IMG/VR virus record: IMGVR_UViG_3300045988_177309
Coordinates: 1 to 32,169 of that record
Reading direction: 5' to 3' (one strand)
DNA from: a virus
DNA length: 32,169 nucleotides
The position numbers and the translations under genes were made by a program. Positions 7,507-30,081 of the stretch are shown here, piece after piece. Positions within the stretch are counted from its first letter, which is position 1. The number at the start of each line of letters is the position of its first letter. A model generated the notes under the pieces. It did no database searches. It saw only the letters and a program-made list of their open reading frames with translations, and was not told the origin of the DNA.

Positions 7507-7860
7507 TTAAAATTCCGGTATTTTAATCGTGTAAGTTTTTCTAATTGTAACTTCTACACGTTCGGGAACCTGTTTACAGACAAATCTGTCATTTCGCACA
7601 TATTCCCCGATTTCTTCATCTTGCCAACGCTGGCGCGTTTTATCCTCAAAGCGCAATGTGTTATATTTGCTTAACGGCAAATGCCACAAATAAACAAATT
7701 CGCGCTTGCCTATTAGCTTATGTTTATCGGCTTTGCGATAGTTGCGAGTGTGTTCAACTCTGCGCCGCTCAAGATTGTTAGTCGTGCCGACTTTAAGAAT
7801 AAAGTCATCATTTTCATCAAGGTAACAGCCCACATAGAGAAATTCTTTTTCATTATTCAT
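7507..7860 (-). CDS. GIY-YIG-like nuclease domain protein (117 aa)
   Basis: FLYVGCY...ILKVGTTNNLERRRVEH matches the GIY / YIG / R..E(H) spacing of GIY-YIG/T5orf172-type domains. Start overlaps the upstream gene by 8 nt. Confidence 0.5.
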   Translation of the reverse strand: MNNEKEFLYVGCYLDENDDFILKVGTTNNLERRRVEHTRNYRKADKHKLIGKREFVYLWHLPLSKYNTLRFEDKTRQRWQDEEIGEYVRNDRFVCKQVPERVEVTIRKTYTIKIPEF

Positions 7861-8245
7861 CTTTTTTCTTCCTCTTTTGGATTAGATTTATTTCATAAGA
7901 ATTTCCCTCATAGTCAAAGATGACTTGGCGTTCTTCGTTCGTGACTTGGAGACTTTCGACCTTTGCGTTCAGCATTTCCGCAATTAGCGCAATTAATTCA
8001 GCCTTTGCGCCGTTTTTCTTTCTTTCGCGCTTCTGGAATTTGTAATTTGTTCCGGTTTGCTTTTTGTGGTCGCAATTAGTCATTTTTTTAGCAACCTTCT
8101 TTTGATCCGGTGTTAAGTCGTACTCCGTAGGCTTGCCATGTTCGACCGCTTCATCATAGGCCATAACTTCGCGGGCTTCGGCTTCGCTTATGTCCAGCGT
8201 TTTCATTAGATTTTCAAGTTTCGCTTTTTCTTGTTCTTTGGTCAA
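7853..8245 (-). CDS. hypothetical basic protein (130 aa); paralog of 10390..10773
   Basis: Shares ...KTLDISEAEAREV...YD... and ...YKFQKRER... with the 10390..10773 product. Confidence 0.6.
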   Translation of the reverse strand: MTKEQEKAKLENLMKTLDISEAEAREVMAYDEAVEHGKPTEYDLTPDQKKVAKKMTNCDHKKQTGTNYKFQKRERKKNGAKAELIALIAEMLNAKVESLQVTNEERQVIFDYEGNSYEINLIQKRKKKDE

Positions 8246-8287
8246 TGGCTCTCAAACCTCCTTTTGGAGGAAAAGGGGCAAAACCCC

Positions 8288-8662
8288 TTAACCTTCCAAA
8301 CCTTCCTTGGCTTCATCGCTCAGCGTAAAATGCGCCTTACGCTTAACCTCAGTGCGAATGACGATGCCCTCATCCTTCAACTTTTTTACAAGCTGGTTTA
8401 TACGGGAATGGGTTATGCTATCATCATCAAGAGCCTTGACTACTTCGGTAATAGTCATACCATCCTTGGGAGCGTGAAACAGAATAGCCTTGATGCGCTC
8501 GGTAAGGATTTCGTTTTCTTCCTGATGGGCAGTAGGCTTGCGAGTGCTTGAGCTCTTGCGGCTTAGCAGTTCAATTTCATGTTCAATGCCTGCAACAAGG
8601 TCAGGACGAGAAACAACTTCGCTCAGGGTCAGCAGTTCGGTAAACATTTCTTTCTTAGTCAT
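8288..8662 (-). CDS. winged-helix-like DNA-binding protein (124 aa); paralog of 10776..11141
   Basis: MTKKEMFTELL..RPDLVAG.EHE..LL.RK...RKPTA.QEE...ITEV.K.LD....SR.NQL.KK.KD.G....EVKRKA.F is conserved with the 10776..11141 product. Confidence 0.6.
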   Translation of the reverse strand: MTKKEMFTELLTLSEVVSRPDLVAGIEHEIELLSRKSSSTRKPTAHQEENEILTERIKAILFHAPKDGMTITEVVKALDDDSITHSRINQLVKKLKDEGIVIRTEVKRKAHFTLSDEAKEGLEG

Positions 8663-8752
8663 AGTATCAACTCACTTTCTGGTTTTTAAGTGTGTCCTTC
8701 ACTTAATAGTGATGCCCTTGGGAGTAGAACCCTGCTCCCTTGGAACGATTAT

Positions 8753-8781
8753 AGTATACACCATAATGCCGTTGGTGTCAA
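8753..8781 (-). promoter_or_regulatory. consensus sigma70-type promoter TTGACA-17-TATACT (minus strand) with conserved leader ATAATCGTTCCAAGGG
   Basis: Plus-strand agtata 8753-58 and tgtcaa 8776-81 with a 17-bp spacer. Leader motif is shared with 13001 and 13936. Confidence 0.65.
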
Positions 8782-8857
8782 CAGTTTTTTGGAAAAAATG
8801 AAAAAGTCAAGGGAAAGTTTTTTACAAACTTTCCCTTGAAAATTATGTTAATTATTT

Positions 8858-9301
8858 TCAATAGCTCACCGGATATTCATTACCCCTATATTCACCATAA
8901 ATATATTCATTGTTATAACAATCATAAGCGCAAATATAATTGTTACTTTTCCAATCATCATCATAATAATCTCCAAGGGTTTGCAAATACGTTTTCACTT
9001 CTGCGGGAATCCCATCGGCGGGTTTACGATTAACGAATTTTTTTTCGATAATAAATTCTCCGGTATTTTCTGACCAATAACCAAGCACCATTCCCCTTTC
9101 CATGTTGTCGGGATTATCCCATTCCCTTATACACTTGCCGATGTTGCCATTTTTTTCAATTTCATAAACTTCCATTGGGAACATACCATTGAATGCCTTC
9201 CAATTCTCAGTTATGCAAATAGGTGTGCGGTCTACATCACACTCGTATTGATCATTCAGCTCCCTACACTTTACAACAAGATACTTTTTCATTTTCATCA
9301 A
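8858..9301 (-). CDS. hypothetical protein (147 aa)
   Basis: ORF track. TAA stop. Confidence 0.5.
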   Translation of the reverse strand: MMKMKKYLVVKCRELNDQYECDVDRTPICITENWKAFNGMFPMEVYEIEKNGNIGKCIREWDNPDNMERGMVLGYWSENTGEFIIEKKFVNRKPADGIPAEVKTYLQTLGDYYDDDWKSNNYICAYDCYNNEYIYGEYRGNEYPVSY

Positions 9302-9307
9302 TTCCTT

Positions 9308-9649
9308 TCATTTTTTAGTATACCTTATTTTATCATAAGGGGCTGAGCTTGTCAACCCCTTTATTACAAAATGGTTAATCCACTTTTTCCCATTTATTTT
9401 TCTTATCGTTCCATTTGTATAAGGTATAGCCATAATCTTCATCGTTTTCATAGGCCGGATTAGATACAGTTTACATCCATCATTATTACTTATTGTAAAA
9501 CTTGGCGTATAATAATCATCTGGATCTAATGTCCCTTGTAATATCAAGCCTGAATCTATTGCTTTTTGAATGGTATTGGCAAAATCGCGCGCGATCTCAT
9601 AAGCTTTAGTATTGCGCCGCAGTTTCAGTTCATCTTGAACAAGGTTCAA
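9308..9649 (-). CDS. hypothetical protein (113 aa; TTG start as given by track, first internal ATG far downstream)
   Basis: ORF track. TGA stop. A 32-aa ORF (9651..9749) lies immediately upstream in another frame. Confidence 0.45.
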   Translation of the reverse strand: MNLVQDELKLRRNTKAYEIARDFANTIQKAIDSGLILQGTLDPDDYYTPSFTISNNDGCKLYLIRPMKTMKIMAIPYTNGTIRKINGKKWINHFVIKGLTSSAPYDKIRYTKK

Positions 9650-9747
9650 ATATTTATGGAGATCATGGGCGCGCCCGCTTCAACGTTTATTCGTTCTCGT
9701 ATTTCTACGCGCCCCAGCTCATCAATTCGCCTTACTTCAAACATTTT

Positions 9748-10008
9748 TTAACCCTCCAACATTGTTATGGTTTCATCGCCGCTGGTAATTTCTGCGCATT
9801 GATAATTACCATTATCTATATCACAGCTAAGAACGTAGCCATAATTTTTTCTAATGTAATCCTTGACGCGCTCATAATCTTCTTCGGTTGCAATTCCGCT
9901 CTTATCCCAATTTTCTTTACAGTTGTCCAGCATCAGCGGCGCAATAACTGCATAAGGAACTTCAACATCCACATTCTCAATCTTACAAATCTGCAAAGTA
10001 ACTTTCAT
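9748..10008 (-). CDS. hypothetical acidic protein (86 aa)
   Basis: ORF track. RBS AAAGGAGATTAAAAAAATG. TAA stop. Confidence 0.55.
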   Translation of the reverse strand: MKVTLQICKIENVDVEVPYAVIAPLMLDNCKENWDKSGIATEEDYERVKDYIRKNYGYVLSCDIDNGNYQCAEITSGDETITMLEG

Positions 10009-10069
10009 TTTTTTAATCTCCTTTTTCTCTTATCTTTTGGAGAACCCCCTTGTCCTCCTGACATTATGT

Positions 10070-10098
10070 AGTATACACCATTTCGTTTATAAAGTCAA
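10070..10098 (-). promoter_or_regulatory. sigma70-type promoter TTGACT-17-TATACT (minus strand)
   Basis: Plus-strand agtata 10070-75 and agtcaa 10093-98 with a 17-bp spacer. Drives the 9748..10008 operon. Confidence 0.55.
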
Positions 10099-10214
10099 TA
10101 CTTTTAGGAAAAAAATGTTTGTCTAAATTTTCACAATTTTTCGTTAAAAAATTACCAGAGATTCTATATTGACAAAATTCTCGCCGGTCTCATCTGAGAG
10201 CGGCGAGTTGAATG

Positions 10215-10310
10215 TCAAGAGGTAATTTTTGTAACAATTTTGTAACAATTATAAAACTTTGCGATAAATTCTCATGATTTTTTTAATAAAATAAGAATTA
10301 TTATCAAGGT
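10215..10310. promoter_or_regulatory. operator-like direct repeats of TTGTAACAATT (tandem pair at 10222-10250, third copy at 10293-10305)
   Basis: Read from the sequence. Lies between the 10070 promoter and the terminator at 10363. Confidence 0.45.
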
Positions 10311-10362
10311 TTTCAACTCAAATTATTACAAATTCGTAACAATTTATGTAATAAATTAAAAA

Positions 10363-10395
10363 ATAAAAGCCCCTTGCGGGCTTTTGTTTTTATTT
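10363..10395. terminator. bidirectional intrinsic terminator (aaaagcccc-ttgc-ggggctttt)
   Basis: Hairpin with an A-run 5' and a T-run 3'. Lies directly after the minus gene ending at 10390. Confidence 0.65.
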
Positions 10396-10773
10396 TCGCG
10401 GACAACTCAAAGTTATTTTATATTTTACATTATCCAACAGGAAAGAAAATTCTCTTTCCACGTTTGTAATTTCCAGCTTTTCCGCGCCTTTATTCTCAAG
10501 CATTTGCGCCAATGCCGCAATTATTTCTTGCTTTGCCGCATTAGCTCTTCTTTCTCTCTGTTGGAATTTATAGCTTGTTTTTGTGCGCGTAATTGTCATT
10601 TCCTTGGCAATTTTTTTTTGTTCTGCGCTCAATTCGCCCAGCTTTTCCCCTGCGTCTATACGCCTATCATAGTCTAACACCTCTTTTGCCTCTGCCTCTG
10701 AAATTTGCAACGTTTTCATTATCTGCTGGATTTGTGGGGAGCTTGCGTTCCCCACGTTTTTGCGTTGATTCAT
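10390..10773 (-). CDS. hypothetical basic protein (127 aa); paralog of 7853..8245
   Basis: ORF track. Conserved motifs as listed for 7853..8245. Confidence 0.6.
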   Translation of the reverse strand: MNQRKNVGNASSPQIQQIMKTLQISEAEAKEVLDYDRRIDAGEKLGELSAEQKKIAKEMTITRTKTSYKFQQRERRANAAKQEIIAALAQMLENKGAEKLEITNVEREFSFLLDNVKYKITLSCPRK

Positions 10774-10775
10774 GC

Positions 10776-11141
10776 TTACTGCTCAATCGGCTTGTGCTCA
10801 ACTCCTGCGGCGAAAAAGTACGCCTTGCGCTTGACTTCTTCGCGCTCAATCGTTCCGGCGTCCTTGGCCTTCTTGATAAGCTGATTCAATCGGGAATGGC
10901 TCAAATCTGCTATGTCCAGCATCTTGAGAATTTCTGTTACTGTGCGGCCTTCGCCATCACTCAAAATCTCAATGACACGGGCGATTATTTTGTCACCTTC
11001 TTCCTGCTTTGCCGTGGGCTTGCGCGTTGCGTTCTTGCGGTTCAGCAGGTCAAGCTCATGTTCCAGCCCGGCTACAAAGTCGGGGCGCGCCTGAATGGTA
11101 GGCAGATTCAGCAGAGCGGTGAACAGTTCCTTTTTGGTCAT
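10776..11141 (-). CDS. winged-helix-like DNA-binding protein (121 aa); paralog of 8288..8662
   Basis: ORF track. The 29 nt spanning its start/5'UTR (11137-11167) are identical to 8659-8687. Confidence 0.6.
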   Translation of the reverse strand: MTKKELFTALLNLPTIQARPDFVAGLEHELDLLNRKNATRKPTAKQEEGDKIIARVIEILSDGEGRTVTEILKMLDIADLSHSRLNQLIKKAKDAGTIEREEVKRKAYFFAAGVEHKPIEQ

Positions 11142-11264
11142 AGTATCAACTCACTTTCTGGTTTTTTTGACTGTCCTTGTCATTTTTTATCTGAAGGGCA
11201 TTTCCTGCCCTTCAGCTTACGACTTATTATAACATGGGGGGCGTGGTTTTGTCAATAGGTTTTT

Positions 11265-11966
11265 TTAACTATTGAACAACTTTTTTTGCATTTTTTTGTG
11301 CTGACGCATACAATGAACAAAAATGCGCGTTTCTATCTCGACATCTTCAAGCCCTGTATGACTTTCAACAAAGTCATTATTGCCGCTAATATATTTGTAC
11401 AGCACTTCTGCCGAACATTGCGGCTGATTGTTTTTAGTCAAGTAGCCATTTTCTTGACAAAAACGCTTATAAGTTTTTTGCTTTGCAATGGTACTGCGTG
11501 CCATGCGAACGGTATCATGCCATTCTATACCCTTGGGCAGAAAATAGCGGTATTTGCTTTTTGTTATATATCTTTGCGTAGCATTAAGCGCGTCATAATC
11601 AAATTTTGCATTGTGCGCCATTACTACGGTTATACCATACTCTGCAATAACATCGACAATAGCCTTGCGAATTTCGTAAAGGCTTGCGATCATGCGTTTA
11701 CCTTCAAGAATTTGCGCATCATACATGCCCATTTTATCGGCGTAATAGGCACTCTGCATAAGATTGCGCTCCGCGTAGTAAATGTCGCGGTTGATAAAGC
11801 TAAAACGTTCATACACGTTGCCGGATTTGTCTACAACTTGCGCGCCCAAGTCATAAAAAAGCGCGTTTTTGCTTACCAGTTTATTATTCTCATCTCGATA
11901 GGTGTTAGCCGTTTCAGTATCTAATACAAGATAATAGCGGCGGCGTTGGTCGATTTTCTTTTCCAT
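11265..11966 (-). CDS. DEDDh-family 3'-5' exonuclease (DnaQ/epsilon-like)
   Basis: Exo I YLVLDTETAN, Exo II VVMAHNAKFDYDALN, Exo III ESHTGLEDVEIETRIF. Probable start is ATG 11966 (MEKKIDQ...) with GGAAGGA RBS. Track ORF extends to 12005. Confidence 0.8.
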   Translation of the reverse strand: MEKKIDQRRRYYLVLDTETANTYRDENNKLVSKNALFYDLGAQVVDKSGNVYERFSFINRDIYYAERNLMQSAYYADKMGMYDAQILEGKRMIASLYEIRKAIVDVIAEYGITVVMAHNAKFDYDALNATQRYITKSKYRYFLPKGIEWHDTVRMARSTIAKQKTYKRFCQENGYLTKNNQPQCSAEVLYKYISGNNDFVESHTGLEDVEIETRIFVHCMRQHKKMQKKLFNS

Positions 11967-12074
11967 CTCTTTTTTCCTTCCTGCGGGAACATTGCGCCCC
12001 CGCAAGTATTATGTTATCACAAGTTGCTTTATTTGTCAACAACTTTTTGCAAAATGGGAAAGAATTTCCATTAT

Positions 12075-12398
12075 GCGGGATTCATCAAATGCCATGCATC
12101 GCGGTTGCGTTTTTCATCATCAAAAAGTATAGCATACTTGTCATTGGCATGATTGTGCTTTGGTGTACCATAGGGAATAATTGTCATTTCATCCCATTTC
12201 ACGGAGGGTAAATGCTTTTTTTATGGCGGTATAGCCATTTGTTCCGCTTTTGGATAACCAGCTAATTATTCCAACTTTATATCCCTTGCGTTGCAGTTGG
12301 TGAATGCGCCGCGCCAATAGAGAAAAGTTTATAAGCGGTTTGGCTATGCGGTATGGTGTAGTATCAGAATTTTCGAGGTATTCAAGCCAATTTTGCAC
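12075..12398 (-). pseudogene. possible frameshifted HAD/NT5C-like remnant (69-aa ORF 12189..12398 plus 38-aa ORF 12075..12186 in another frame)
   Basis: ...GYKVGIISW... then, in a shifted frame, ...YGTPK...DKYAILFDDEKRN.D.WH. These resemble C-terminal HAD motifs. No N-terminal DxD motif is present. Confidence 0.25.
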
Positions 12399-12414
12399 AC
12401 CATAAAAATTTGTC

Positions 12415-12450
12415 AGTGTTCACAATTTTGTCACAATTCAAAAAATGTAT
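12415..12450. promoter_or_regulatory. operator-like repeats GTTCACAATTTTGTCACAATT immediately upstream of minus gene start 12398
   Basis: Variant of the GTNACAATT repeat seen at 10222-10305. Confidence 0.4.
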
Positions 12451-12593
12451 TATTTGTGACGCGATAATACACTATGTATAATTATACAATTGTTAAAAAT
12501 ACTACGATAATTTTTTAACAATAGGGGGTTTCGGGATTGATAATTTTTTATTACAAATGATAAAAAATTATCAGAAATTCCGCCAAAAAATGC

Positions 12594-12634
12594 TTGACAC
12601 AAAGCTCGGCCTGTGCCAACCGCGCACAGGCCGC
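12594..12634 (+). repeat. copy 1 of repeated element: TTGACA-CAAAGCTC-[hairpin ggcctgtgc-caaccgc-gcacaggcc]-GCC
   Basis: Paralogous to 14399-14438. Same flank and loop, different stem with compensatory changes. Preceded by the shared block ggattgataat. Confidence 0.6.
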
Positions 12635-12722
12635 CAACAAAGTCAAGGCCATATATAAAAAATAATAGGCTGTAAATTACTTACAGCTTTTTAATTCAAT
12701 TTTTGTTTTTATTTTTCAAGCT

Positions 12723-12865
12723 TTAGTTTTCTTCATCATTTTTTTTATGTTTCTTTTTTCTGCGATACTTTTTTTTATCCAATTCAATTCTTGTATAAGG
12801 TTTAACGTCTCCCCAATTTTTTCTTATTTTTCGCAGGGTTTCAAGTTGCTGTTCTTTTGATGCCA
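12723..12865 (-). CDS. small highly basic protein (47 aa, K/R-rich C-terminus)
   Basis: Internal ATG 12865 with RBS AAAGTGAGGTG (MASKEQQLETLRK...KKYRRKKKHKKNDEEN). Track ORF 12723..12941 includes the 5'UTR. Confidence 0.4.
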
Positions 12866-13000
12866 TATAGTAACACCTCACTTTTAACTGAAAAGGCGGG
12901 GGGATGTTCCCCCGCTTGTTATGTCTTAGCCCTAACCTCATACCTGTTTTTCATTTTCTTCAATCTCCTTTGATTTTTTGTTCCTCTCTTGGAACAATTA

Positions 13001-13029
13001 TAGTATACTATACTTAGGCTAAAATGTCA
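13001..13029 (-). promoter_or_regulatory. consensus promoter TTGACA-17-TATACT (minus strand) with leader ATAATTGTTCCAAGAG
   Basis: Plus-strand agtata 13001-06 and tgtcaa 13024-29. Confidence 0.65.
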
Positions 13030-13038
13030 ATACCTTTT

Positions 13039-13509
13039 TCAAAGGTTTTTTGTTTCTGAAACAAAATACTTTGCGCCAACTGCATCAAGTATTGTTTTGG
13101 CTTTCGCGCTCTGCTCTTGAGTTGCGCAAAAACAATTGATAATAAAATATTTATTTATGTCTATCCAATTAAAAGGGATATCTGCCAATTCCAATTGATC
13201 GCGCAAAGCATATAATATTTTTTCATCATGTTTTATGGTGCTTTCAATCTTCCAGAGCATTTCTTTGCGCGCTTTTTCTTCCAATAGCTTAACAAGATAA
13301 ACCCCTATAAAATTTGCCGCCGCGGTGACAGCCATTTTTCCCTCAATGCTAAGCGCGGCATCGCTTGTTAAAAGAATAACATAAGTATAAAAGCCATATG
13401 TTAAAGCATTTATTAAGGCCGCCGCAAGCTTAGAACCTTTAATTGTAATAAGGCTTTTTACTGTTGAAAGAATTACATTGATTATTGTACAAATAGAAAA
13501 CAATATCAT
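13039..13509 (-). CDS. membrane protein (156 aa, 3-4 predicted TM helices in N-terminal half)
   Basis: ORF track. Hydrophobic segments. TGA stop. Confidence 0.55.
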   Translation of the reverse strand: MILFSICTIINVILSTVKSLITIKGSKLAAALINALTYGFYTYVILLTSDAALSIEGKMAVTAAANFIGVYLVKLLEEKARKEMLWKIESTIKHDEKILYALRDQLELADIPFNWIDINKYFIINCFCATQEQSAKAKTILDAVGAKYFVSETKNL

Positions 13510-13599
13510 TAAAAATCACCTACTTTTTTAAGTATTCCTCCAAAAAAGAGAGGGTTAAGAGATTGTCTTTGTTATTCGCCTAGAGTCTCAGCGGTTTTT

Positions 13600-13749
13600 T
13601 TATCCCCCACAAACTGCCGCCAGTAGAATATATAAGAGGTATAAACAACTTGCGCCGCATATGGCTTGTGTTGCGCGTATTGCGAACCATGCGACTGAAC
13701 GCGGGCGAACCTTGAATTTTTTGGTTACAATGTAATCATCATCAAACAT
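13600..13749 (-). CDS. small hydrophobic protein (49 aa)
   Basis: RBS AAGGGAGGAAGAAACAATG. ORF MFDDDYIVTKKFKVRPRSVAWFAIRATQAICGASCLYLLYILLAAVCGG. Confidence 0.4.
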   Translation of the reverse strand: MFDDDYIVTKKFKVRPRSVAWFAIRATQAICGASCLYLLYILLAAVCGG

Positions 13750-13935
13750 TGTTTCTTCCTCCCTTTTGTTTATACCTTATTATACTATTTATTTTATTAT
13801 TTGTCAATAGATATTTTTACAAAAAGATTGTCGAGTTTTTAACAAAGTTTGTCGCTTTAACACGTTAAAGCATTATCACTTTAATGCGCTAAAGTGACGC
13901 TCTAAAAAATAAAAAAAACTTTTTCAAAAAAAGTG

Positions 13936-13964
13936 TTGACAGATTTTAAGTGTTGTGCTATACT
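13936..13964 (+). promoter_or_regulatory. perfect consensus promoter TTGACA-17-TATACT
   Basis: TTGACA 13936-41, TATACT 13959-64. Confidence 0.75.
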
Positions 13965-13970
13965 ATAATT

Positions 13971-14123
13971 GTTCCAAGGGGAGCGCGGTTAGCAGACACC
14001 GTGCAGGGGTTCAGGTAGTAAGTCCCCAAAAGGGCAGTAAAGCCAAGCGAATCGCGTCACAAGGAATCAGTAAGTCGCTCCCAAAGAACAAAAAAGTTGC
14101 TAAATTTTAGCAACTTTTTTTTT
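13971..14123 (+). ncRNA. short structured RNA (about 120-150 nt) between a consensus promoter and an intrinsic terminator; weak resemblance to the domain IV / helix 8 region of small SRP (4.5S) RNA
   Basis: No ORF. Terminal helix GGGAGCG...CGCUCCC. Internal CAGGGGUUCAGGUAGUAAGUCC...GGGCAGUAAAGCCAAG. Terminator gttgctaa-atttt-agcaac + T9 at 14096-14123. Confidence 0.55.
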
Positions 14124-14134
14124 ACACAAAGGTA

Positions 14135-14163
14135 TTGACAAGCTTGCGCAAGTGTGGTATACT
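14135..14163 (+). promoter_or_regulatory. perfect consensus promoter TTGACA-17-TATACT
   Basis: TTGACA 14135-40, TATACT 14158-63. Confidence 0.75.
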
Positions 14164-14272
14164 TGAATGGGATGCTGCTGTCAACAAGACTGACTATTTA
14201 TTAACAATCTCAGTTTCCGCGGCGGAAACCTGTTTCCCAACAGGAAATAGAAAAGATAAGTTAATTTTTTAA
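14164..14272 (+). ncRNA. second short structured RNA (about 105 nt)
   Basis: Two hairpins (gtttccgc-g-gcggaaac; cctgtt-tccca-acagg) followed by a T6 run at 14265-70. No ORF longer than 8 codons. Confidence 0.45.
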
Positions 14273-14398
14273 CAAAGTAAAACTTTTTCGTAACATTTTG
14301 GACTTGTTAAAAAATTAACAATATTTGCCCAATTTTAGGATTGATAATATTTTAACAAAGTTGTCCAAAGTTTGTTAAAAATTTACCACAATAAACTC

Positions 14399-14438
14399 TT
14401 GACATAAGCTCGGTGCGTGTCAACCGCACACGCACCGC
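14399..14438 (+). repeat. copy 2 of repeated element: TTGACA-TAAGCTC-[hairpin ggtgcgtgt-caaccgc-acacgcacc]-GC
   Basis: See 12594-12634. Preceded by the shared block taggattgataat. Confidence 0.6.
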
Positions 14439-15039
14439 TGAATAATATAACTGTATCAACCTCTTTATATAATAATAGCACAGCTTAATAAGTCTCTAAG
14501 CTGTGCTACAGTAACAGTGCAGTATCTACCAAGGAGAGTGTTGCCGTGGCGGCATTGAGCATGTACACAACGTTATATTATTAATGCTCAGTATGTCGAG
14601 CTAAAAGGCTGTTCGCGCAACCTTATTCGCTTGAAGAAAGGAAGTGGAAAATGAATAATCATTAAAAAAATAATTTTCATTTTTTATTTTGTCTGTTGGA
14701 GTAAAACCAAGAGAGAAAGATATTGGAAGAAAAAGCTCTCTTAATTTATATTAGACAGAGCAGACTATATTAAGCAGTATGTTGCTGCATTACTTAATGT
14801 TAGAACCGCAGAAGAGAGAGTAGCTTTGTTATTGCGGCAAGCACAATACTTATAATACGCTCTACTTGTTTTAACAAAAGTCTTCCCCTTATGCTCCTTC
14901 TACATCAACGTTTATATTAGTTATTATGATTGAATGTTAATTAAATAAAGTTAAGTTATTTAATTGTATGCAAGTCTATAGACAAGCTTTGTATGTATTG
15001 TGACACTTGCTACGTCGTGTCACACCAGAAAGGAGGTTA

Positions 15040-15340
15040 AGAAAAAAAAACAAAATAATTTTTCTTTTTACATTATAACGAAGCAATAAAAAACGTTATA
15101 AAATTAATATTAATATTTAATTTATATTTATTATATTTAATTTAATACATTAAAAAGAAATAAATTACTAAAAGAAAATCAAATATTAATTTAAGAAAAG
15201 AATTTAGTTTATACAAAAAAAGAATACATTAAATAATATTTCCTTAATAGATTAATTATATTATACAGTATTTTTTTAATTTTGTCAAATTTTTTATATT
15301 TCTTTTATTCTTATTTGCTGTTGGTGAGTTTGCTGGCAAG
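15040..15340. other. roughly 300-bp extremely AT-rich tract (candidate DNA-unwinding/origin or packaging element)
   Basis: More than 85% A+T by eye, no ORF, sits between structured GC-richer segments. Confidence 0.4.
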
Positions 15341-15651
15341 TGCCGCAAGCACAAGAGTTTCAGGATGTGATTTGAGTTAAATAAGCCGCGGCGGAAGAAA
15401 AGATTTTTCTCTGTTGGCCTATTTTGATTGAAATCAAGGCCGTTAACGATGACTAGGATTATTCTAAGTGGGGGCTGGGGTTGGAGGGTCGCGCGTTCCT
15501 CAGATAAAAAGTCCGTAAGGTTCATGAATGTTTATCTGGTAAAAACTAAAAGAACAAAAGGGGGGTAGTATTTCGGGAAAAAATTTTTTTTGATTTAATA
15601 AAAACGTTTTGCCTGGACAATCTTCTGTCCCCAAGTATTTTTATTTTCAAA

Positions 15652-15934: not shown

Positions 15935-16000
15935 AAAGTAAGACTTAGAGTAAAGTCTAAAATTTCGGAGCGAGGCTCCGAAAGGAGGTTCTAAAAAACT

Positions 16001-17075
16001 TTTGATAAAATTAGATTATTCTTTAGAAACTCCAGAAGAAAGAGTACAATTAGTAGAGCAAATTTTGGCTGAATAGCCTAATCCTCCTCAAAAATACATA
16101 GAAATTTTAACTGATTATCTAGTTATGTGCATGGAGCGTCAAGAACGCCGTGAGCGCAAAATATTAACTGAGAATCGTTTGGCGACAGTTAATAAACGTG
16201 AAACCTCTTTTGAAGGTCTTGTATCACAACTAGAAAGTGGCGAAGATGGAATCTATAATCTCATTCATGAAAATAAGAACCAAATATTTAAACCAAAAGT
16301 AAGAATAACAAAAAAAGACATTGAAGAAATACCCGAACTCCAACAAATAAGAGATTCCATTGAATTTTGGGAAAAAAAGGCAAAAACCGCACAAGGTCGC
16401 GAAGCATTTATTATACGAAAAACAATTATTGAATTGCGCAAAGATCAATACCTTGTGAAAGACTCTTTCCGATAGCCCATTCAAGCAAGTTCAACCGCGC
16501 ATTCACGTGGTATCTATAAACTTACTTATGATGATAAAACTTGCAATTTTGATGAAGAAGGATATCCAATTCCTTCTGGTCTCTCTCTTTTGGATCCAAA
16601 CATTTGTTCGACAATCTTATGTTTATATTCTAAATTAAAACAAGATGGTTATAGTGAATTCATTGGTGATTTATACTATCTTATGGAAGATTTTGATAAA
16701 ATTTCTATTATTGCGCTTGCGCCTTATCCTATTTATCAAAAATTAGTATTATATAAAATAGATGGCCGACAAAACGCTGAAATACAAAATTTATTACAAA
16801 CAGAATTTGGTATTACTCATAGTCTTGAATACCTTTCGAGTCTTTGGCGTAATAAAATTCCTAAATTAATAGCCAGTGCCGCAGAAGATCAATATCTTGA
16901 ATGGTATTACCTTAATGCTGAAAAAGGCAAATATAAAAGATGTAGCTGCTGTGGACAAATTAAATTAGCTCATAATAAATATTTTTCTAAAAATAAAACT
17001 AGCAAAGATGGTTATTACAGCATTTGTAAAAAATGTCGCAATGCTAAAAGTAAAAAAAGAAAAAGGAAGAAATAA
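16001..17075 (+). CDS. hypothetical protein with C-terminal Zn-ribbon (CSCCGQ...CKKC) and basic tail; 1 in-frame TAG
   Basis: Track ORFs 16125..16475 and 16590..17075 share a frame through the TAG at 16473. The frame stays open upstream to a TTG at about 16001, 11 nt after AAAGGAGG. The start is uncertain and may be 16125. Confidence 0.5.
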
Positions 17076-17078
17076 TTT

Positions 17079-18266
17079 ATGAGCGAGTTACATTATTGTA
17101 AAAAATGTAATCGAACCATGAATGGGGAACAATTTTATTCTTCTAACAATTTAGAAAAATACCCTGATAATGGTAAATTTGATATTTGCAAGAAATGTAT
17201 GACTATGCATGTAGATAATTGGGATCCAAACACTTACCTTTGGATCCTAGAAGAAGCTGACGTGCCTTATGTTCCCGATGAATGGAATAAATTGATGGCA
17301 AAGTATGCCAATAATCCAGAAAAATTAACTGGTATGACTATTCTAGGGCGTTATCTCTCTAAAATGAAACTTAAACAATTTAGAGATTATCGATGGAAAG
17401 ATACCGCTTTCTTGCAAGAATTGACACAAAGTAAAATTGAGCAAACAATGAAACGCTCCGGTTATGATGCTTAGCAAATTGCCGAAGCTATTAATAAGGT
17501 TACTTTTACTTTTGATGAACATTATGAATAGCCTCCAATTCCTGCTTCGAATGAATGTAGTGAATCTGAAGATTATTTTGACCAATAGAATGATATTTCT
17601 ATTCCAGAAGAAACGTTTGATTTAACCGACGAAGAAAAATTAATGTTGCGTCTTAAATGGGGAAAAACTTATAAACCAGAAGAATGGATTAAACTTGAAC
17701 AATTATATAATGAATTTCTTTAGTCTTATGATATTCAAAGCGCAGGACATATTGATACTCTTAAATTGATATGCAAAACCTCTCTTAAAGCCAATTAGTT
17801 AATCGATATTGGAGATGTAGAAGGTTTTCAAAAAATGAGCCGGGTGTATGATAATTTAATGAAGAGCGGTAAGTTTACTGCTGCTCAAAACAAAGCCGAA
17901 TCTGGGGAATATGTAAATTCAATTTCTGAACTTGTTACTTTATGTGAATAGCAAGGTTTTATTCCTCGTTATTATGTATCTACACCGCAAGATAAAGTTG
18001 ATGAAACTTTATAGGATACTAAAAATTATGTGCGGACTTTAGTTACCGAAGAAATGAACTTAGGTAATTTAATTGAATCTTCAATACGCACAATGAATTA
18101 TGAAGAAAATAAAGAAGAAGATGAAGATATCGAAGATGAAATAATGGAAGATGTAGTTCCTGAAATTACTGATGAAGACTTCATGGAGCAAGAGGAATTT
18201 CTTGAGTCTGAACAAGAGAAAGATGCGCGATTGACTGAAGAATTGGCCTTGGGCAAAAATAATTAA
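17079..18266 (+). CDS. hypothetical protein (N-terminal CxxC...CxxC, acidic C-terminus); 7 in-frame TAGs
   Basis: Track ORFs 17079..17474 and 18030..18266 share a frame. The frame stays open through TAGs at about 17473, 17528, 17585, 17720, 17798, 17949 and 18010, with no TAA or TGA. TAA at 18264-66. Confidence 0.6.
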
Positions 18267-18937
18267 TGGCATTACAAGAACTTTTAAATTTATAGTCTCG
18301 ATACAATAAATTAGGGCTTTCTGAAGAGCGCGTAACTGCAATTCTTCCAGTAGTGCGTGAATATGTAGCATTCTGGCGTGAATACCCAGATATGTTTATT
18401 GATTTCCTTTTGGAAGCGGGGAACCCTTAGAATTTTCATCTTTATTTTTATCAACGAGTATTTTTACGTGCGGCAATGCGGCATAAATATGTGTATGCAG
18501 TTTACCCGCGCGCCTATTCAAAATCGTTTCTTGCAATTATGATTTTAATGATACGTTGCATTCTCTATCCCAAGTGTAAACTTTTCGTTACTTCGGGTGG
18601 TAAAGAATAGGCGGCTGGTATCATAAAGGAAAAAGTACAAGAAATATGTAATCTTATTCCAGCAATGGATAAAGAAATAGATTATCGACCTGGTCAAACT
18701 AGATTTATTAAAGACCAAACTACAATAGTATTTAAAAATGGCTCTTATTTTGATAATATTGCAGCGCGTGAAACCTCTCGTGGTAAACGTCGTCATGGTG
18801 GAGTCATAGAAGAATGTGTTGGAGTCGATGGCGATATACTGTCCCAAGTTATTATTCCCACAATGAACATTTCACGTATGTGTATGGATGGAACAACATA
18901 GCCTGAAGAAACGCTCAATAAGTCCCAAATTTATGTT
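18266..18937 (+). CDS. terL: terminase large subunit, exon 1 (ATPase domain)
   Basis: ATG overlaps the upstream TAA (TAATG). ...AVYPRAYSKSFLAIM... (deviant Walker A) ...ETLNKSQIYV coupling motif. In-frame TAGs. The frame then degenerates and hits TAA at 19007, so the exon must end near 18937. Confidence 0.65.
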
Positions 18938-19530
18938 AATTTTTTGGTCATTTTACGTTACTTAAATGTATTAATTTTAAAGAGAAAAAAGCCCATTCTA
19001 CCATTATAAAATCTAAAAGAAAGCTTACGCAAGAACAAGTTTTTATGATTTATGTAAATAATGAATAGAATATTATTCCAAAAACATATCTTTGTAATAT
19101 GTTTAATATCACTAGTAATACAATTTATACTATTTTAAATCAAAAATCTTATCAAGATTATTGGCAAGATTATCAAAAATTAACGAATGATCAAAAAGAA
19201 CAATTAGCATCATTGTTGCGAAAGCAACAACAGCAAACCCCTTGAATTGCTGGGAAGCCCTAAAAAATAGGGTAATCAGCAGCCAAGCCTTGAATAAAGG
19301 AAGGTTCAACGACTATCTCAATATGAGAGTAGAGGCAAGCGTCTCGAAGTGGGGGGCCCTTAGCAGGTAAAGCTGAAGGTGAAGATATAGTCTTTTCTAT
19401 ATAGTAATATATAGCAGTTCATAAGAGAACGTATTTAATTTAGCGAATTAAATAGAAAAATAAAGAACAACTGCGGGATACAAAAACACATATGCTTATG
19501 ATAAACTTATTTAGTTGTTAGTTTGGTAGA
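18938..19530 (+). mobile_element. group I (IA-like) self-splicing intron interrupting terL; boundaries approximate
   Basis: P GAATTGCTGGGAAGC 19245-59. P5 hairpin ccct-aaaaaat-aggg. Q AATCAGCAGCC 19274-84. P6 ccttgaataaaagg. R GTTCAACGACTA 19304-15. P8 tctca-ata-tgaga. S AAGATATAGTC 19382-92 (GACUA:UAGUC P7). P9 ctatata-gtaa-tatatag. All in canonical order. Confidence 0.7.
19045..19245 (+). CDS. intron-internal ORF, HTH-like (possible degenerate homing-endonuclease DNA-binding module); contains 1 in-frame TAG
   Basis: Frame differs from both exons. MIYVNNE(Q)NIIPKTYLCNMFNITSNTIYTILNQKSY... resembles a NUMOD/HTH motif. TGA stop at 19243-45. Confidence 0.25.
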
Positions 19531-20525
19531 TCGTAAGACCAGAACGTTCAATTATTCTCGGAGGTACTTACCGCATCCCAGTTCTTATGAAGCTTCTGGA
19601 TAAAAGCTTTGTTCAAGACTTGCGTATGGATGGTACCTTTAATGAAAGTGCATTTTAGCGAGAATATGAGTCGAAATGGTCTGGCACAGTAGAGGATGCA
19701 TTCTTTAATCCAGAAGTTTTTGAACGTAATCGCATTCTTAATCAGCCAGAATATGAACTTTCTGGACGTGCATCAAAACAATCTTATTATGTGCTTTCTG
19801 TGGATGTTGGTCGCAAACAATGCGACACTGTTGTTTGCGTTTTTAATGTCATTCCATAGTAGCAAGGTACATCAATAAAAAAATTGGTTAACATATTTGT
19901 ATTAACTGATGAACATTTTGAAGATCAAGCAATAAGATTAAAGCAATTATATTATAAATTTAAAGCACGTCGTATTGTAATTGATGCGAATGGATTAGGT
20001 ATTGGACTTGTAGATTATATGATAAAAACTCAAGTTAACCCTGAAACAAATGAAACTTATTATGATTTTGGTGTTTATAATGATGAAGATAATTATTACA
20101 AAAAATATAGAACCATTTTCACAGAACAAGATGCAATGTATTTAATTAAAGCTAATGCGCCATTAAATACTGATGCTCATGCGAATGCACAATCTTAGCT
20201 ATCTTCTGGAAAAGTAAAATTTTTAATTGATGTTCAAACAGCCAAAGCGAAATTGCTTAATACAAAAGTTGGCCAAAATATGAGTCCTGAACAAAGGACA
20301 GATTATTTAAAACCATTTAATTACACTTCCATATTAAAAGAAGAAATGTTGAATCTTCGTGAAGAAAATGAAGGTATTAATATTAATTTAAAACAAATAA
20401 ATCGCGGAATACGAAAAGACAAATTTTCTGCGTTTGAATATGGGTTATATTATATTAAACATGAAGAAGATGACAAGAAAAAACGTAAAAGATTTAATGC
20501 AAAAGATTGGGCTTTTTTTAATTAA
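19530..20525 (+). CDS. terL: terminase large subunit, exon 2 (linker + RNaseH-like nuclease domain)
   Basis: ...FQREYESKWSGTVEDAFFNP... then ...YYVLSVDVGRKQCDTVVCVFN... and IVIDANGLGIGLVDYM. In-frame TAGs at about 19656, 19857-62 (double) and 20196. Track ORFs 19884.. and 20253..20525 share the frame. TAA at 20523-25. Confidence 0.7.
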
Positions 20526-20634
20526 AGGAGAAATAAAATATGAAAAGTTTTGCAGTAATAGCCAATAAAGCTATTAGAAGTTTTGATACGACTATATTAA
20601 ATTATACTGATATTGCTATGAGGTATTATCAACA

Positions 20635-20994: not shown

Positions 20995-21008
20995 AGGAGG
21001 TGCGTAAT

Positions 21009-22616: not shown

Positions 22617-22628
22617 GGAGGAATATTA

Positions 22629-24167: not shown

Positions 24168-24188
24168 TAGTTTTAAGGAGGATAAACA

Positions 24189-24953: not shown

Positions 24954-24970
24954 GAAAGGAGAAAAATATA

Positions 24971-26080: not shown

Positions 26081-26162
26081 TTTTTAATATAAGGGGAGAA
26101 AAAAGGATACTTTCGTATCCCTTTTCTCCCATTTTTTGCTATGAGAAAAAGGAGATAATAAA

Positions 26163-26759: not shown

Positions 26760-26786
26760 TAAATAAATAGGAGGCGAGTTTACACT

Positions 26787-28697: not shown

Positions 28698-28721
28698 TGA
28701 GATAAAGGAGAAAAAAGTGTT

Positions 28722-29330: not shown

Positions 29331-29332
29331 TT

Positions 29333-30058: not shown

Positions 30059-30081
30059 ATATTAAGGAGGAACAAAACACT

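What the first reader, a model, noticed from the sequence alone, without database searches (positions are those of the whole stretch)
8739..13985. Conserved promoter-plus-leader cassette (TTGACA-17-TATACT followed by ATAATYGTTCCAAGRG) reused at least three times on both strands
The elements at 8753-8781 (-), 13001-13029 (-) and 13936-13964 (+) share the exact -35, spacer length and -10. They also share about 16 nt of initial transcribed sequence (AUAAUYGUUCCAAGGG). A fourth and fifth variant (10070-10098 (-), 14135-14163 (+)) share the hexamers only. Conservation extending into the transcript suggests a common 5' leader function, such as processing, stability or a regulator binding site, in addition to strong host-RNAP recognition.
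Basis: seen in the sequence. Interest (0 to 1): 0.5.

Follow-up and report, generated by a model that had tools for sequence, protein, structure and literature searches.

The report
Reused phage early promoter-leader cassette
A 22-base block, made of the end of a strong bacterial-type promoter plus the first ten transcribed bases, is repeated three times in this phage fragment and more than 200 times, unchanged, in related uncultivated gut and rumen phages; its transcribed half tends to fold the RNA's 5' end into a helix, which probably protects early phage transcripts.

Summary
TTGACA-N17-TATACT followed by ATAATYGTTCCAAGRG occurs at 8737-8781(-), 12986-13030(-) and 13936-13980(+). No such match occurred in 100 shuffles.

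It is not a recent duplication. About 200 distinct copies lie in 161-183 unrelated flanks.

The window is the early region of a TAG-recoded Clostridia-type phage of about 175 kb. The cassette is a feature of its whole clade.

Anatomy:
- A Gram-positive sigma-A promoter: A/T-rich upstream tract, TTGACA, 17 bp, TRTG, TATACT.
- An untranscribed discriminator, ATAATY.
- A leader, GUUCCAAGRG, that starts at the predicted +1 G.

The leader's complement, GGAAC, follows in 31% of copies against 3-4% in controls, with loops of 3-10 nt. Other copies pair the whole leader with a site 60-150 nt downstream. The first four bases are paired in 56-64% of predicted folds, against about 10% for other promoters.

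The best reading is a stereotyped early promoter whose leader forms a 5'-terminal protective helix. It also acts as a junction for module swapping, as PeSLs do in T4-like phages. The mechanism is inferred. One third to one half of copies keep the invariant leader without a partner, so a protein-binding or initiation role is not excluded. I class it as a new variant of a known kind.

The parts
8753..8781 (-). Copy 1 promoter core: TTGACA (8781-8776), 17-bp spacer, TATACT (8758-8753)
8737..8752 (-). Copy 1 discriminator ATAATC (8752-8747) and leader GTTCCAAGGG (8746-8737). The predicted +1 is the G at 8746.
   Evidence: register inferred from the -10 position
8288..8746 (-). Copy 1 transcript. 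The 84-nt 5' UTR holds a 22-nt hairpin insertion (GGAGCAGGGTTCTACTCCCAAG) that is absent from L048 and different in L124. It is followed by a 124-aa gene (8288-8662) with weak winged-helix hits, which has a paralog at 10776-11141.
8807..8839 (-). Terminator-like hairpin of the upstream gene, immediately 5' of the copy 1 promoter. This terminator-then-promoter order matches a PeSL.
13002..13030 (-). Copy 2 promoter core: TTGACA, 17-bp spacer, TATACT
12980..13001 (-). Copy 2 discriminator ATAATT (13001-12996) and 5'-terminal hairpin GUUCC-AAGAGA-GGAAC (12995-12980)
   Evidence: z = -3.1 for the first 41 nt
12723..12995 (-). Copy 2 transcript, in order: hairpin, Shine-Dalgarno sequence, 11-codon mini-ORF (12954-12919), terminator-like hairpin (12915-12896), then a 47-aa gene MASKEQQ... 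(12866-12723).
13936..13964 (+). Copy 3 promoter core: TTGACA, 17-bp spacer with TGn, TATACT
13965..13980 (+). Copy 3 discriminator ATAATT (13965-13970) and leader GTTCCAAGGG (13971-13980)
13971..14125 (+). Copy 3 product: a non-coding structured RNA of about 150 nt. Leader GUUC pairs with GAAC near its 3' end, and GGGAGCG pairs with CGCUCCC. It ends in an intrinsic-terminator-like hairpin plus a T-run (14090-14125). It is 92% conserved in two relatives whose promoter spacers have diverged.
   Evidence: z = -5.3; no Rfam family
10070..10098 (-). Related promoter without the leader (TTGACT-17-TATACT, then ACATAATGTCAGGAGGAC)
14135..14163 (+). Related promoter without the leader (TTGACA-17-TATACT, then TGAATGGG). 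It opens a 1.5-kb stretch with no ORF.

Best explanation
The cassette is a stereotyped early promoter-plus-leader module of a clade of uncultivated TAG-recoded phages with 100-240 kb genomes that probably infect Clostridia.

The DNA half is read by the host sigma-A RNA polymerase. It consists of an A/T-rich upstream tract, TTGACA, a 17-bp spacer ending in TRTG, TATACT, and the AT-rich discriminator ATAATY. Transcription most likely starts at the G of GTTCCAAGRG.

The 10-nt transcribed half acts as the 5' strand of a helix that begins at nucleotide 1. That helix is either a small terminal hairpin (GUUCC-loop-GGAAC) or the closing helix of a 60-150-nt structured leader or small RNA. A 5' end buried in a helix, with U and not G at position 2, is a poor substrate for the RppH/RNase J 5'-end-dependent decay route of Firmicutes. 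The module would therefore give strong, long-lived early transcripts: mRNAs of small standard-code genes, small RNAs and a pre-tRNA.

Because the 22-nt block is identical everywhere, it also serves as a crossover point where gene modules are exchanged between relatives.

Shown here: the motif, its register relative to the -10, its clade-wide conservation, the enrichment of pairing partners, and the homology switches at the block. Inferred: the start site, the use of host sigma-A, and the stabilising effect.
For: Reality and selection:
- three copies sharing only 20-25 nt.
- 17 further stretches in MAG contigs, mostly labelled Clostridia.
- 207 distinct copies, 183 non-redundant by flanks, 161 unrelated downstream clusters.
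- of 87 extra GTTCCAAG copies not forced by the query, most sit exactly 6 nt after a -10-like hexamer.
- positions +9 and +10, also not forced by the query, are G in 142 and 162 of 183 copies. The logo also shows TTGACA, TRTG and an upstream A/T tract.
- cassette-bearing contigs include relatives whose late-module protein is 98% down to 64% identical to the window's.
- across three orthologues of copy 3, only 5 of the 17 spacer columns are identical in all three sequences while -12 to +7 is unchanged.

RNA-level evidence:
- exact GGAAC lies at +9 to +25 in 30.9% of cassette promoters, against 3.1% for 29 anagram control words and 4.0% after other promoters. The GTCC allele carries its own complement GGAC in 12 of 22 copies, against a 5% background.
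- loop lengths of 3-10 nt do not fit a fixed-spacing protein operator.
- hairpin bases cluster at -3 to 0 relative to the predicted start in 110 of 138 copies, against about 2% per position elsewhere.
- nucleotides 1-4 are all paired in the predicted fold in 56-64% of cassette transcripts. The figure is 9-11% for other promoters and 8-15% when the leader 8-mer is permuted.
- contiguous helices of 10-12 bp between the leader and a site at +67 to +148 occur in 9 of 107 copies that lack a local arm. Several of these helices end exactly at G1.
- 14 cells with changes on both sides of a pair, reached by 0 of 500 shuffles.
- all three window copies are predicted to pair G1.

Early-gene class:
- of 105 cassette-driven ORFs (median 78 codons), only 5 reach TAG as their first stop, whereas late genes carry many in-frame TAGs.

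Module swapping:
- the promoter of window copy 1 matches L048 cassette 2, but its downstream sequence matches L048 cassette 1. The copy 2 promoter, spacer included, drives a different gene in L130, while the copy 2 gene has a different promoter in L064.

Background:
- BsRppH needs at least 2 unpaired 5' nucleotides and prefers G at position 2 (PMC3997798).
Against: - Only about one third of copies have an exact local complement, and about half have one of 4 bp. The leader is invariant in the rest as well, so pairing alone does not explain its conservation.
- Shuffling the purine-rich downstream sequence still pairs nucleotides 1-4 in 37-40% of folds. Much of the signal is therefore compositional.
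- Among 40 variant 5' arms, only 7 form a strict 5-bp hairpin with their own arm, while 13 would pair with the canonical arm. Covariation is thus partial.
- G.U evidence is weak.
- The covariance-model alignment was fitted to the structure, which biases it towards pairing.
- The fold of copy 1 is not better than its shuffles (z = -1.25).
- The discriminator ATAATY is co-conserved with the leader although it is probably not transcribed. This points to a DNA-level constraint.
- No transcript ends, half-lives or host are known.
Confidence: 0.5

Rival explanations
1. The block from -12 to +10 is an operator. A phage-encoded (or host) DNA-binding protein recognises TATACTATAATTGTTCCAAGG over the start site and switches the whole early regulon off, or on, together. 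The downstream GGAAC is then secondary.
For: - The leader is invariant even where no RNA partner exists.
- The untranscribed discriminator is co-conserved with the leader.
- The motif is almost never found away from a start site.
- A second motif specific to these phages, AATTGTTACAA, matches 10 of 11 positions of cassette positions -4 to +7 (AATTGTTCCAA). It occurs 23 times in cassette loci and never in control loci, often just upstream of the -35 of cassette promoters. In the window it is a tandem pair at 10229-10250.
- The cassette-driven window genes give weak winged-helix hits.
Against: - The GTTCCAAGG leader persists with other discriminators (AAGGAT, ACAATT, ATACTT), so the transcribed part is the separable unit.
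- The spacing between GTTCC and GGAAC varies from 3 to 10 nt and up to 150 nt. That suits RNA and not a dimeric operator.
- The block has no internal dyad symmetry beyond TTG...CAA.
- No candidate binding protein was identified.
Confidence: 0.2
2. The conserved bases are an optimised discriminator and initially transcribed sequence. They tune open-complex stability, start-site choice (a +1 G, hence sensitivity to GTP) and promoter escape for very strong early promoters. This would resemble the conserved downstream regions of phage T5 early promoters.
For: - The block lies entirely inside the RNA polymerase footprint and is fixed in register with the -10.
- TATACT-ATAAT is a common arrangement in many unrelated phage promoters, so that part is generic promoter design.
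- phAss-1, a distant relative, has its own different stereotyped promoter-leader in about 30 copies.
- The T5 precedent and the +1 nucleotide effects in Bacillus subtilis come from my own knowledge. I did not check them in the paper library.
Against: - It does not predict the 8-10-fold enrichment of the leader's complement downstream, or the long distal helices that end at G1.
- Other equally consensus promoters in the same phages use quite different purine-rich starts.
- Only about 9 of 119 sampled TTGACA-N17-TATACTATAAT sites carry the leader.
Confidence: 0.15
3. The nascent leader hairpin is a protein- or polymerase-binding RNA signal, like lambda nut/boxB or HK022 put. It would make transcription from these promoters resistant to terminators, or mark the transcripts for a phage RNA-binding protein or nuclease.
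For: - A small hairpin lies directly downstream of divergent early promoters. Copies 2 and 3 face away from each other, as pL and pR do.
- Terminator-like hairpins follow within the transcripts of copy 2 (12915-12896) and copy 3 (14090-14125).
- The apex ..CC-AAG-GG.. is kept in variants with different stems, such as ACUCC-AAG-GGAGU and AUCCC-AAG-GGGAU.
Against: - The loop varies in length and sequence, and many copies have no hairpin.
- No boxA-like partner is seen, and no N-, Q- or put-like component was identified.
- No Rfam family matches.
- The motif is tied to the very 5' end, which antitermination sites do not need.
Confidence: 0.1
4. The similarity is only the trace of recent segmental duplication within this genome.
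For: One pair of paralogous genes with similar 5' UTRs exists nearby: 8624-8699 against 11103-11178, 83% identical.
Against: - The three copies share only 20-25 nt with unrelated flanks.
- That paralog pair uses different promoters.
- The block is identical in about 200 unrelated contexts in other phages.
Confidence: 0.01

Closest known systems
PeSL (promoter-early stem-loop) cassettes of T4-like phages (Arbiol et al. 2010, PMC2839356; Comeau et al. 2014, PMC4122927)
   Same: - Short, highly conserved composite regulatory cassettes built on a near-consensus sigma-70 promoter (TTGACA-N17-TATAAT).
- Repeated many times between small, variable early genes.
- Found at insertions, deletions and replacements between close relatives.
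- Here, homology partners switch at the block, and copy 1 sits right after a terminator hairpin.
   Different: - In PeSLs the stem-loop is a terminator upstream of the promoter, and the conserved parts are the promoter and the Shine-Dalgarno sequence.
- Here the most conserved part runs from the -10 into the first 10 transcribed bases, and the stem-loop is at the RNA 5' end.
- The host is a Firmicute and not a proteobacterium, and the phages are unrelated to T4.
- The spacer and the -35 flanks are not conserved.
5'-terminal stem-loop mRNA stabilisers (E. coli ompA and papA; B. subtilis aprE leader, ermC and SP82 5' stabilisers), as reviewed and referenced in PMC3997798
   Same: A helix that starts at or within a few nucleotides of the 5' end, upstream of a strong Shine-Dalgarno sequence. 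This is the arrangement known to block RppH, RNase J or RNase E entry from the 5' end.
   Different: - Known stabilisers are individual gene leaders with no shared sequence.
- Here one invariant 5' arm is reused in hundreds of transcripts, with 3' arms that differ in position.
- The stabilising effect is untested here.
Conserved initially transcribed regions of strong phage T5 early promoters (from my own knowledge; not checked in the paper library)
   Same: Strong host-polymerase early promoters of a large lytic phage that share sequence downstream of the -10 and into the transcript.
   Different: T5 similarity is loose and A/T-rich. Here 22 nt are essentially invariant and are followed by their own complement.
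The stereotyped promoter cassette of phage phAss-1 (OQ749652.1).
   Same: phAss-1 belongs to the same broad group of TAG-recoded phages; its counterpart of the window's 369-aa late-module protein is 50% identical. It carries about 30 copies of one nearly identical promoter-leader.
   Different: - The sequence is different (TTGACATAAAAAAATTTTTRTGNTATAAT-ATATAT-AGAAARTGAG).
- Its conservation includes the spacer.
- The leader is purine-rich, has no 5' hairpin and does not contain GTTCCAAG.

Membership tests
Sigma-70/sigma-A-type bacterial promoter | A -35 hexamer close to TTGACA and a -10 hexamer close to TATAAT, separated by 16-18 bp | tested here: met
   All three copies have TTGACA-17-TATACT, 11 of 12 consensus positions. 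The family logo shows the same pattern.
Sigma-70/sigma-A-type bacterial promoter | Gram-positive extended -10 (TRTG at -17 to -14) and an A/T-rich upstream element | tested here: met
   Logo of 183 non-redundant copies: T at -17 in 151, T at -15 in 166, G at -14 in 157, and A/T-rich tracts from -55 to -40. In the window only copy 3 has TG in the scanner's sense.
Sigma-70/sigma-A-type bacterial promoter | Experimentally mapped start site 6-8 nt after the -10, and dependence on the host holoenzyme | not testable with these tools
   There are no transcript data. The +1 G is inferred from geometry and from the fact that several distal helices end at G1.
PeSL mobile regulatory cassette (T4-like phages) | Terminator stem-loop immediately upstream of an early promoter, then a Shine-Dalgarno sequence and start codon | tested here: inconclusive
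   Copy 1 follows a 14-bp terminator-like hairpin at 8807-8839. Copies 2 and 3 have no clear upstream terminator. Copy 3 drives a non-coding RNA.
PeSL mobile regulatory cassette (T4-like phages) | Located at insertions, deletions or replacements of small genes between close relatives | tested here: met
   Copy 1 against L048, and copy 2 against L130 and L064: the homology partner switches at the block.
PeSL mobile regulatory cassette (T4-like phages) | Occurs in T4-like myoviruses of Gram-negative hosts | tested here: not met
   The window's 369-aa late-module protein (24971-26080) finds its nearest GenBank relatives in phAss-1 and Enterococcus phages. MAG labels point to Clostridia. The cassette therefore works like a PeSL but is not a member.
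5'-terminal stem-loop mRNA stabiliser | A helix beginning within a few nucleotides of the transcript 5' end | tested here: met
   This is a prediction only. Nucleotides 1-4 are paired in 56-64% of copies against 9-11% of other promoters. Hairpin bases lie at -3 to 0 in 110 of 138 copies. All three window copies pair G1.
5'-terminal stem-loop mRNA stabiliser | Measured increase in mRNA half-life that depends on the helix | not testable with these tools
   Requires rifampicin-chase experiments with helix-disrupting and compensatory mutants.
Lambda-type nut (boxA/boxB) or HK022 put antitermination site | A boxB hairpin with a GNRA-like pentaloop plus boxA, or a two-stem put RNA of about 70 nt, together with an N protein or a polymerase-zinc-domain dependence | not tested
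   I made no dedicated search for boxA or for N-like proteins. The variable loop and the absence of Rfam hits argue against membership.
Any curated RNA family (Rfam 15) | A covariance-model match at or near the gathering score | tested here: not met
   No hit overlaps the cassettes or the copy 3 RNA. The only window hit is a group I intron. Nineteen cassette loci gave only tRNAs.

The most novel reading that the evidence does not exclude
The invariant block from -12 to +10 is a clade-specific 'early-regulon tag' read by a dedicated phage factor, which no one has yet identified. That factor would either bind the DNA across the start site, perhaps the same protein that binds the related AATTGTTACAA iterons, or bind the 5'-terminal RNA sequence or hairpin. 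Dozens of early transcripts (mRNAs, small RNAs and a pre-tRNA) would then be switched off, protected or processed together as the phage moves from standard-code early genes to TAG-recoded late genes.
Probability: 0.2. Interest if true: 0.7.

Novelty: new variant of a known kind. Interest (0 to 1): 0.5.

Why it matters
- Annotation. The cassette marks start sites and the early gene class in a large, uncultivated and poorly annotated group of TAG-recoded gut and rumen phages. It is a 22-nt tag that can be searched directly.
- Evolution. It extends the idea of mobile regulatory cassettes from T4-like phages of Gram-negative hosts to big phages of Firmicutes, with a different architecture in which the stem-loop sits at the RNA 5' end.
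- A testable question. One invariant 5' arm is paired with many independently placed 3' arms. This makes a natural series for testing how 5'-end sequestration controls RNA life-time in Clostridia.
- Application. If it works as proposed, it is a ready-made strong promoter plus stabilising leader for expression in these bacteria.
- If a dedicated factor reads the block instead, it would be a handle on early-to-late switching in recoded phages.

Tried and rejected
- Rfam, at gathering and at E-value thresholds: nothing on the cassettes or the copy 3 RNA.
- Megablast of 8000-15000 against GenBank phages: no hit.
- blastn of a 37-nt cassette against GenBank phages: only chance-level hits with E of at least 2. 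No deposited phage carries the cassette.
- Full-text search for the sequence string: only unrelated primer hits.
- phAss-1 whole genome: no GTTCCAAG at any promoter.
- Strict test for 5-bp covariation in variant arms: weak. 7 of 40 pair with their own arm and 13 of 40 would pair with the canonical arm, although the own-arm count was reached in only 9 of 2000 permutations.
- G.U wobble as evidence for RNA over DNA: not convincing. Most one-mismatch arms are GGAAA or GGAAG, as expected from composition.
- Extension of the helix into the discriminator (UU pairing with AA): GGAACA and GGAACAA frequencies give no clear support, and distal helices often stop at G1. I therefore did not move the start site upstream.
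- A host chromosomal origin: all 17 hits among 185,579 species genomes are MAG contigs. Three contigs (four of the stretches) are 144-175 kb, which is phage-sized, and some are binned to unrelated phyla.
- The idea that the cassette drives a suppressor tRNA: the downstream tRNA is an ordinary tRNA-Ser(UGA).
- Resemblances to cre, LexA (Cheo box) and T4 RegA sites: I considered these by eye and dropped them, because the central CG is absent in most copies and the half-sites are in the wrong order. They were not formally tested.

Full report

Yes. TTGACA-N17-TATACT occurs four times in the window, and none of 100 dinucleotide-preserving shuffles gave any match. The 16-mer ATAATYGTTCCAAGRG occurs exactly three times. 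Each copy lies directly after one of the promoters 8753-8781(-), 13002-13030(-) and 13936-13964(+).

The site at 10070-10098(-) has TTGACT and not TTGACA. The site at 14135-14163(+) has both hexamers.

The repeat finder shows that the copies share only 20-25 nt (families D8, I5 and I8). They are not part of a longer duplicated segment.

**2. Context**

The window has 34.7% G+C. Its left half carries small minus-strand ORFs in the standard code, and nearly every one has its own consensus promoter and often a terminator. From about 15,950 onward the plus strand carries long reading frames that are open only if TAG is read as sense, for example 11 in-frame TAGs in 546 codons. These frames include a portal protein, a large terminase subunit and a virion structural protein. 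The terminase frame is split by a group I intron at 19192-19414.

The window is therefore the junction of the early and late regions of a TAG-recoded ('code 15') phage.

- A 369-aa late-module protein (24971-26080) is 50% identical to its counterpart in phAss-1, a described TAG-recoded gut phage thought to infect Clostridia (PMC10607447).
- The same protein is 98% identical to that of the 175,955-bp contig IMGVR_UViG_3300045988_175607.
- The closest DNA relatives in the material fetched are that contig (L048, L064) and a 174,861-bp contig binned as 'Clostridium sp. SUG910' (L124, L130). They are 78-94% identical to the window.

The genes driven by the cassettes are small early proteins with at most weak winged-helix hits.

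**3. The cassette is clade-wide**

The contigs are mostly 20-240 kb, with up to three or four copies per 8-12 kb.
- Among 185,579 species-representative genomes it occurs in only 17 stretches, all in MAG contigs. Most are labelled Clostridia, Oscillospiraceae, Acutalibacteraceae or Lachnospiraceae. Several come from ruminant projects. Three contigs (four of the stretches) are 144-175 kb, which is phage-sized. This makes it a phage element and not a host one.
- No GenBank phage carries it.
- In the fetched DNA there are 207 distinct copies of '-10-like hexamer, 6 nt, GTTCCAAG'. Of these, 183 are non-redundant by flanks, and the downstream sequences fall into 161 unrelated clusters.
- At least eight of the 52 contigs that encode a relative of the late-module protein (98% down to 64% identity) are also in the truncated cassette list.

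The 20-mer query forces identity within itself, so the following checks use data that the query did not force.

- 87 further GTTCCAAG copies were not matched by the 20-mer. Most of them sit exactly 6 nt after some -10-like hexamer, such as TATAAT, TAATAT or TACAAT.
- Positions +9 and +10 are G in 142 and 162 of 183 copies.
- A control scan for TTGACA-N17-TATACTATAAT returned 119 stretches, of which only 9 were cassette loci. TATACT-ATAAT is therefore a common promoter design in many phages, and the leader is the clade-specific part.
- phAss-1 itself has no such leader. It has about 30 copies of a different stereotyped promoter-leader.

**4. Anatomy**

The logo of 183 copies shows, in order:

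- A/T-rich tracts at -55 to -40;
- TTGACA;
- an unconserved spacer ending in T-R-T-G at -17 to -14, the Gram-positive extended -10;
- TATACT, or less often TATAAT;
- the discriminator ATAATT or ATAATC;
- GTTCCAAG followed by G/A and G.

With this geometry the G of GTTCC is the expected +1.

Across three orthologues of copy 3, only 5 of the 17 spacer columns are identical in all three sequences. Positions -12 to +7 are identical, and the downstream RNA is about 92% conserved.

**5. Evidence that the transcribed part works as RNA**

- The exact complement GGAAC lies at +9 to +25 in 30.9% of cassette promoters. The figure is 3.1% on average for the 29 anagram control words and 4.0% after other promoters in the same loci. 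GAAC is present in 53% against 15%.
- Loop length varies from 3 to 10 nt.
- Hairpins of at least 5 bp have their base at -3 to 0 relative to the predicted start in 110 of 138 copies, against about 2% per position for other promoters.
- In minimum-free-energy folds of the first 40-100 nt, nucleotides 1-4 are all paired in 56-64% of cassette transcripts. The figure is 9-11% for other promoters, 8-15% when the leader 8-mer is permuted, and 37-40% when the downstream sequence is shuffled.
- Variant alleles keep the hairpin with changed stems: GUCC-GAAG-GGAC, GUACC...GGUAC, AUCCC-AAG-GGGAU and ACUCC-AAG-GGAGU. GTCC starts are followed by GGAC in 12 of 22 cases, against a 5% background.
- I built a covariance model from a hand-made seed of 16 29-mers modelled on observed copies. 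It aligned 121 distinct sequences with 14 double-sided changes, a count reached by 0 of 500 shuffles. That alignment was fitted to the structure, so it leans towards it.
- Of the 107 copies without a local arm, 9 pair the whole leader (10-12 contiguous bp) with a site at +67 to +148. These sites often lie just before the next promoter or before a tRNA-Ser gene, and several of the helices stop exactly at G1.

In the window:

- Copy 2 forms GUUCC-AAGAGA-GGAAC at the 5' end.
- Copy 3 uses GUUC...GAAC and GGGAGCG...CGCUCCC to close a terminated RNA of about 150 nt (z = -5.3).
- Copy 1 pairs G1 only weakly, around an inserted hairpin (z = -1.25).

**6. Evidence that RNA pairing is not the whole story**

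- One third to one half of copies have no recognisable partner yet keep the invariant leader.
- Composition alone explains a good part of the predicted pairing.
- Of 40 variant 5' arms, 13 still face a 3' arm that fits the canonical sequence, and only 7 face one that fits their own.
- G.U pairs give no clear support.
- The untranscribed discriminator is co-conserved with the leader.
- A second motif specific to these phages, AATTGTTACAA, differs by one base from cassette positions -4 to +7. It is often found just upstream of cassette promoters, with 23 copies in cassette loci and none in control loci.

A DNA-binding factor or an effect at transcription initiation therefore cannot be excluded.

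**7. Module exchange at the block**

- Copy 1. Its promoter, spacer included, matches cassette 2 of L048, whereas everything downstream of GTTCCAAG matches cassette 1 of L048. Between the two, the window has a 22-nt hairpin insertion flanked by CCAAG repeats. L124 has a different insertion at the same point.
- Copy 2. Its promoter, with an identical spacer, drives an unrelated 74-aa gene in L130. The 47-aa gene it drives in the window has a different promoter in L064.

This is the behaviour described for PeSL cassettes in T4-like phages (PMC2839356; PMC4122927).

**8. Class of genes served**

I examined 105 cassette-driven ORFs, with a median length of 78 codons. The first stop is TAA in 81, TGA in 19 and TAG in 5. 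They are therefore essentially free of in-frame TAG, as expected for early genes translated before suppression starts. The cassette also drives non-coding RNAs (copy 3) and a leader followed by tRNA-Ser(UGA).

**9. Most likely mechanism**

The module is a host sigma-A early promoter fused to a 10-nt leader that buries the transcript's 5' end in a helix.

In Firmicutes, decay from the 5' end needs RppH and RNase J. The Bacillus subtilis RppH needs at least two unpaired 5' nucleotides and prefers G at position 2 (PMC3997798). A transcript that starts GUU... and is paired from nucleotide 1 should be a poor substrate. The expected result is high and lasting early expression.

The identical 22-nt block additionally provides microhomology for swapping gene modules.

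- Shown here: the motif, its register, its conservation, the partner enrichment and the homology switches.
- Inferred: the start site, the polymerase used and the stabilising effect.

I give this composite explanation a probability of about 0.5. The rivals are an operator (0.2), optimisation of initiation and escape (0.15), an antitermination or RNA-protein signal (0.1) and recent duplication (refuted).

**10. Novelty and verdict**

Stereotyped early promoter cassettes and 5'-terminal stabilising hairpins are both known. Their fusion into one invariant block running from -12 to +10, reused about 200 times across a clade of uncultivated recoded phages of Firmicutes, has not been described in the papers I could search.

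I class it as a new variant of a known kind, of moderate interest (0.5). It is useful for annotation and as an experimental handle. Its mechanism is still open.

Noticed in passing
window 19192-19414 (+): A group I intron (Rfam RF00028, 92.7 bits, E = 8e-23) interrupts a reading frame resembling the large terminase subunit (18263-19009 and 19464-20525, read with TAG as sense).
   Followed up: partly
window about 15950-32169 (+): Late genes (portal protein, structural proteins) contain many in-frame TAG codons, up to 12 per ORF, while the early minus-strand genes have none. This marks a code-15 (TAG-recoded) phage. No tRNA gene lies in the window.
   Followed up: partly
window 10229-10250, and loci L014, L021, L027, L028, L118 and others: A second clade-specific motif, AATTGTTACAA, occurs 23 times in cassette loci and never in control loci. 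It is usually followed by TGTTAA and a GC-rich palindrome (GCGCGCCGGC...) and lies about 6 nt upstream of the -35 of a divergent promoter. It matches 10 of 11 positions of cassette positions -4 to +7. It could be a regulator site or a phage-specific promoter.
   Followed up: partly
window 10160-10215 (-), 12596-12640 (+), 14399-14445 (+): Repeated units consisting of TTGACA followed directly by a long GC-rich hairpin in place of a -10 hexamer. They lie in AT-rich intergenic islands full of TTAACAA and TTGTAACAA repeats. Their function is unknown.
   Followed up: no
window 12896-12954 (-): In the copy 2 transcript, an 11-codon mini-ORF (MKNRYEVRAKT) with a strong Shine-Dalgarno sequence ends a few bases before a terminator-like hairpin, and the 47-aa gene follows. 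This looks like a translation-coupled attenuator. The arrangement is absent from relatives L064 and L130.
   Followed up: partly
window 14163-15650: A stretch of about 1.5 kb has no ORF of 50 aa or more in any frame, yet is 87.5% identical to relative L130. It lies downstream of the promoter at 14135-14163. It may be a long non-coding transcript or a regulatory region. There is no Rfam hit.
   Followed up: no
window 8624-8699 and 11103-11178; genes 8288-8662 with 10776-11141, and 7853-8245 with 10390-10773: Two adjacent early genes are present as a diverged tandem pair of paralogs with 83% identical 5' UTRs and start regions. Only the 8288-8662 copy is driven by the GTTCCAAG cassette.
   Followed up: partly
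L042 1683-1775, L132 5084-5176, L023 2710-2802, L112 10283-10375: tRNA-Ser(UGA) genes. In L042 and L132 (coordinates checked) the gene lies about 95-100 nt downstream of a cassette. In L023 and L132 the leader's distal partner is followed directly by tRNA-like sequence, so the leader closes on itself just before the tRNA.
   Followed up: partly
phAss-1, OQ749652.1 (L299-L301): About 30 copies of a different stereotyped promoter-leader (TTGACATAAAAAAATTTTTRTGNTATAAT-ATATAT-AGAAARTGAG) with a conserved palindromic spacer. The phAss-1 paper does not mention it.
   Followed up: partly
many loci, e.g. L020, L022, L033, L114: Tandem promoter arrangement: a cassette, then 60-110 nt of structured RNA, then a second promoter (TTGACA...TATAAT-AAGGAT) that again starts with GTTCCAAGG.
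   Followed up: no
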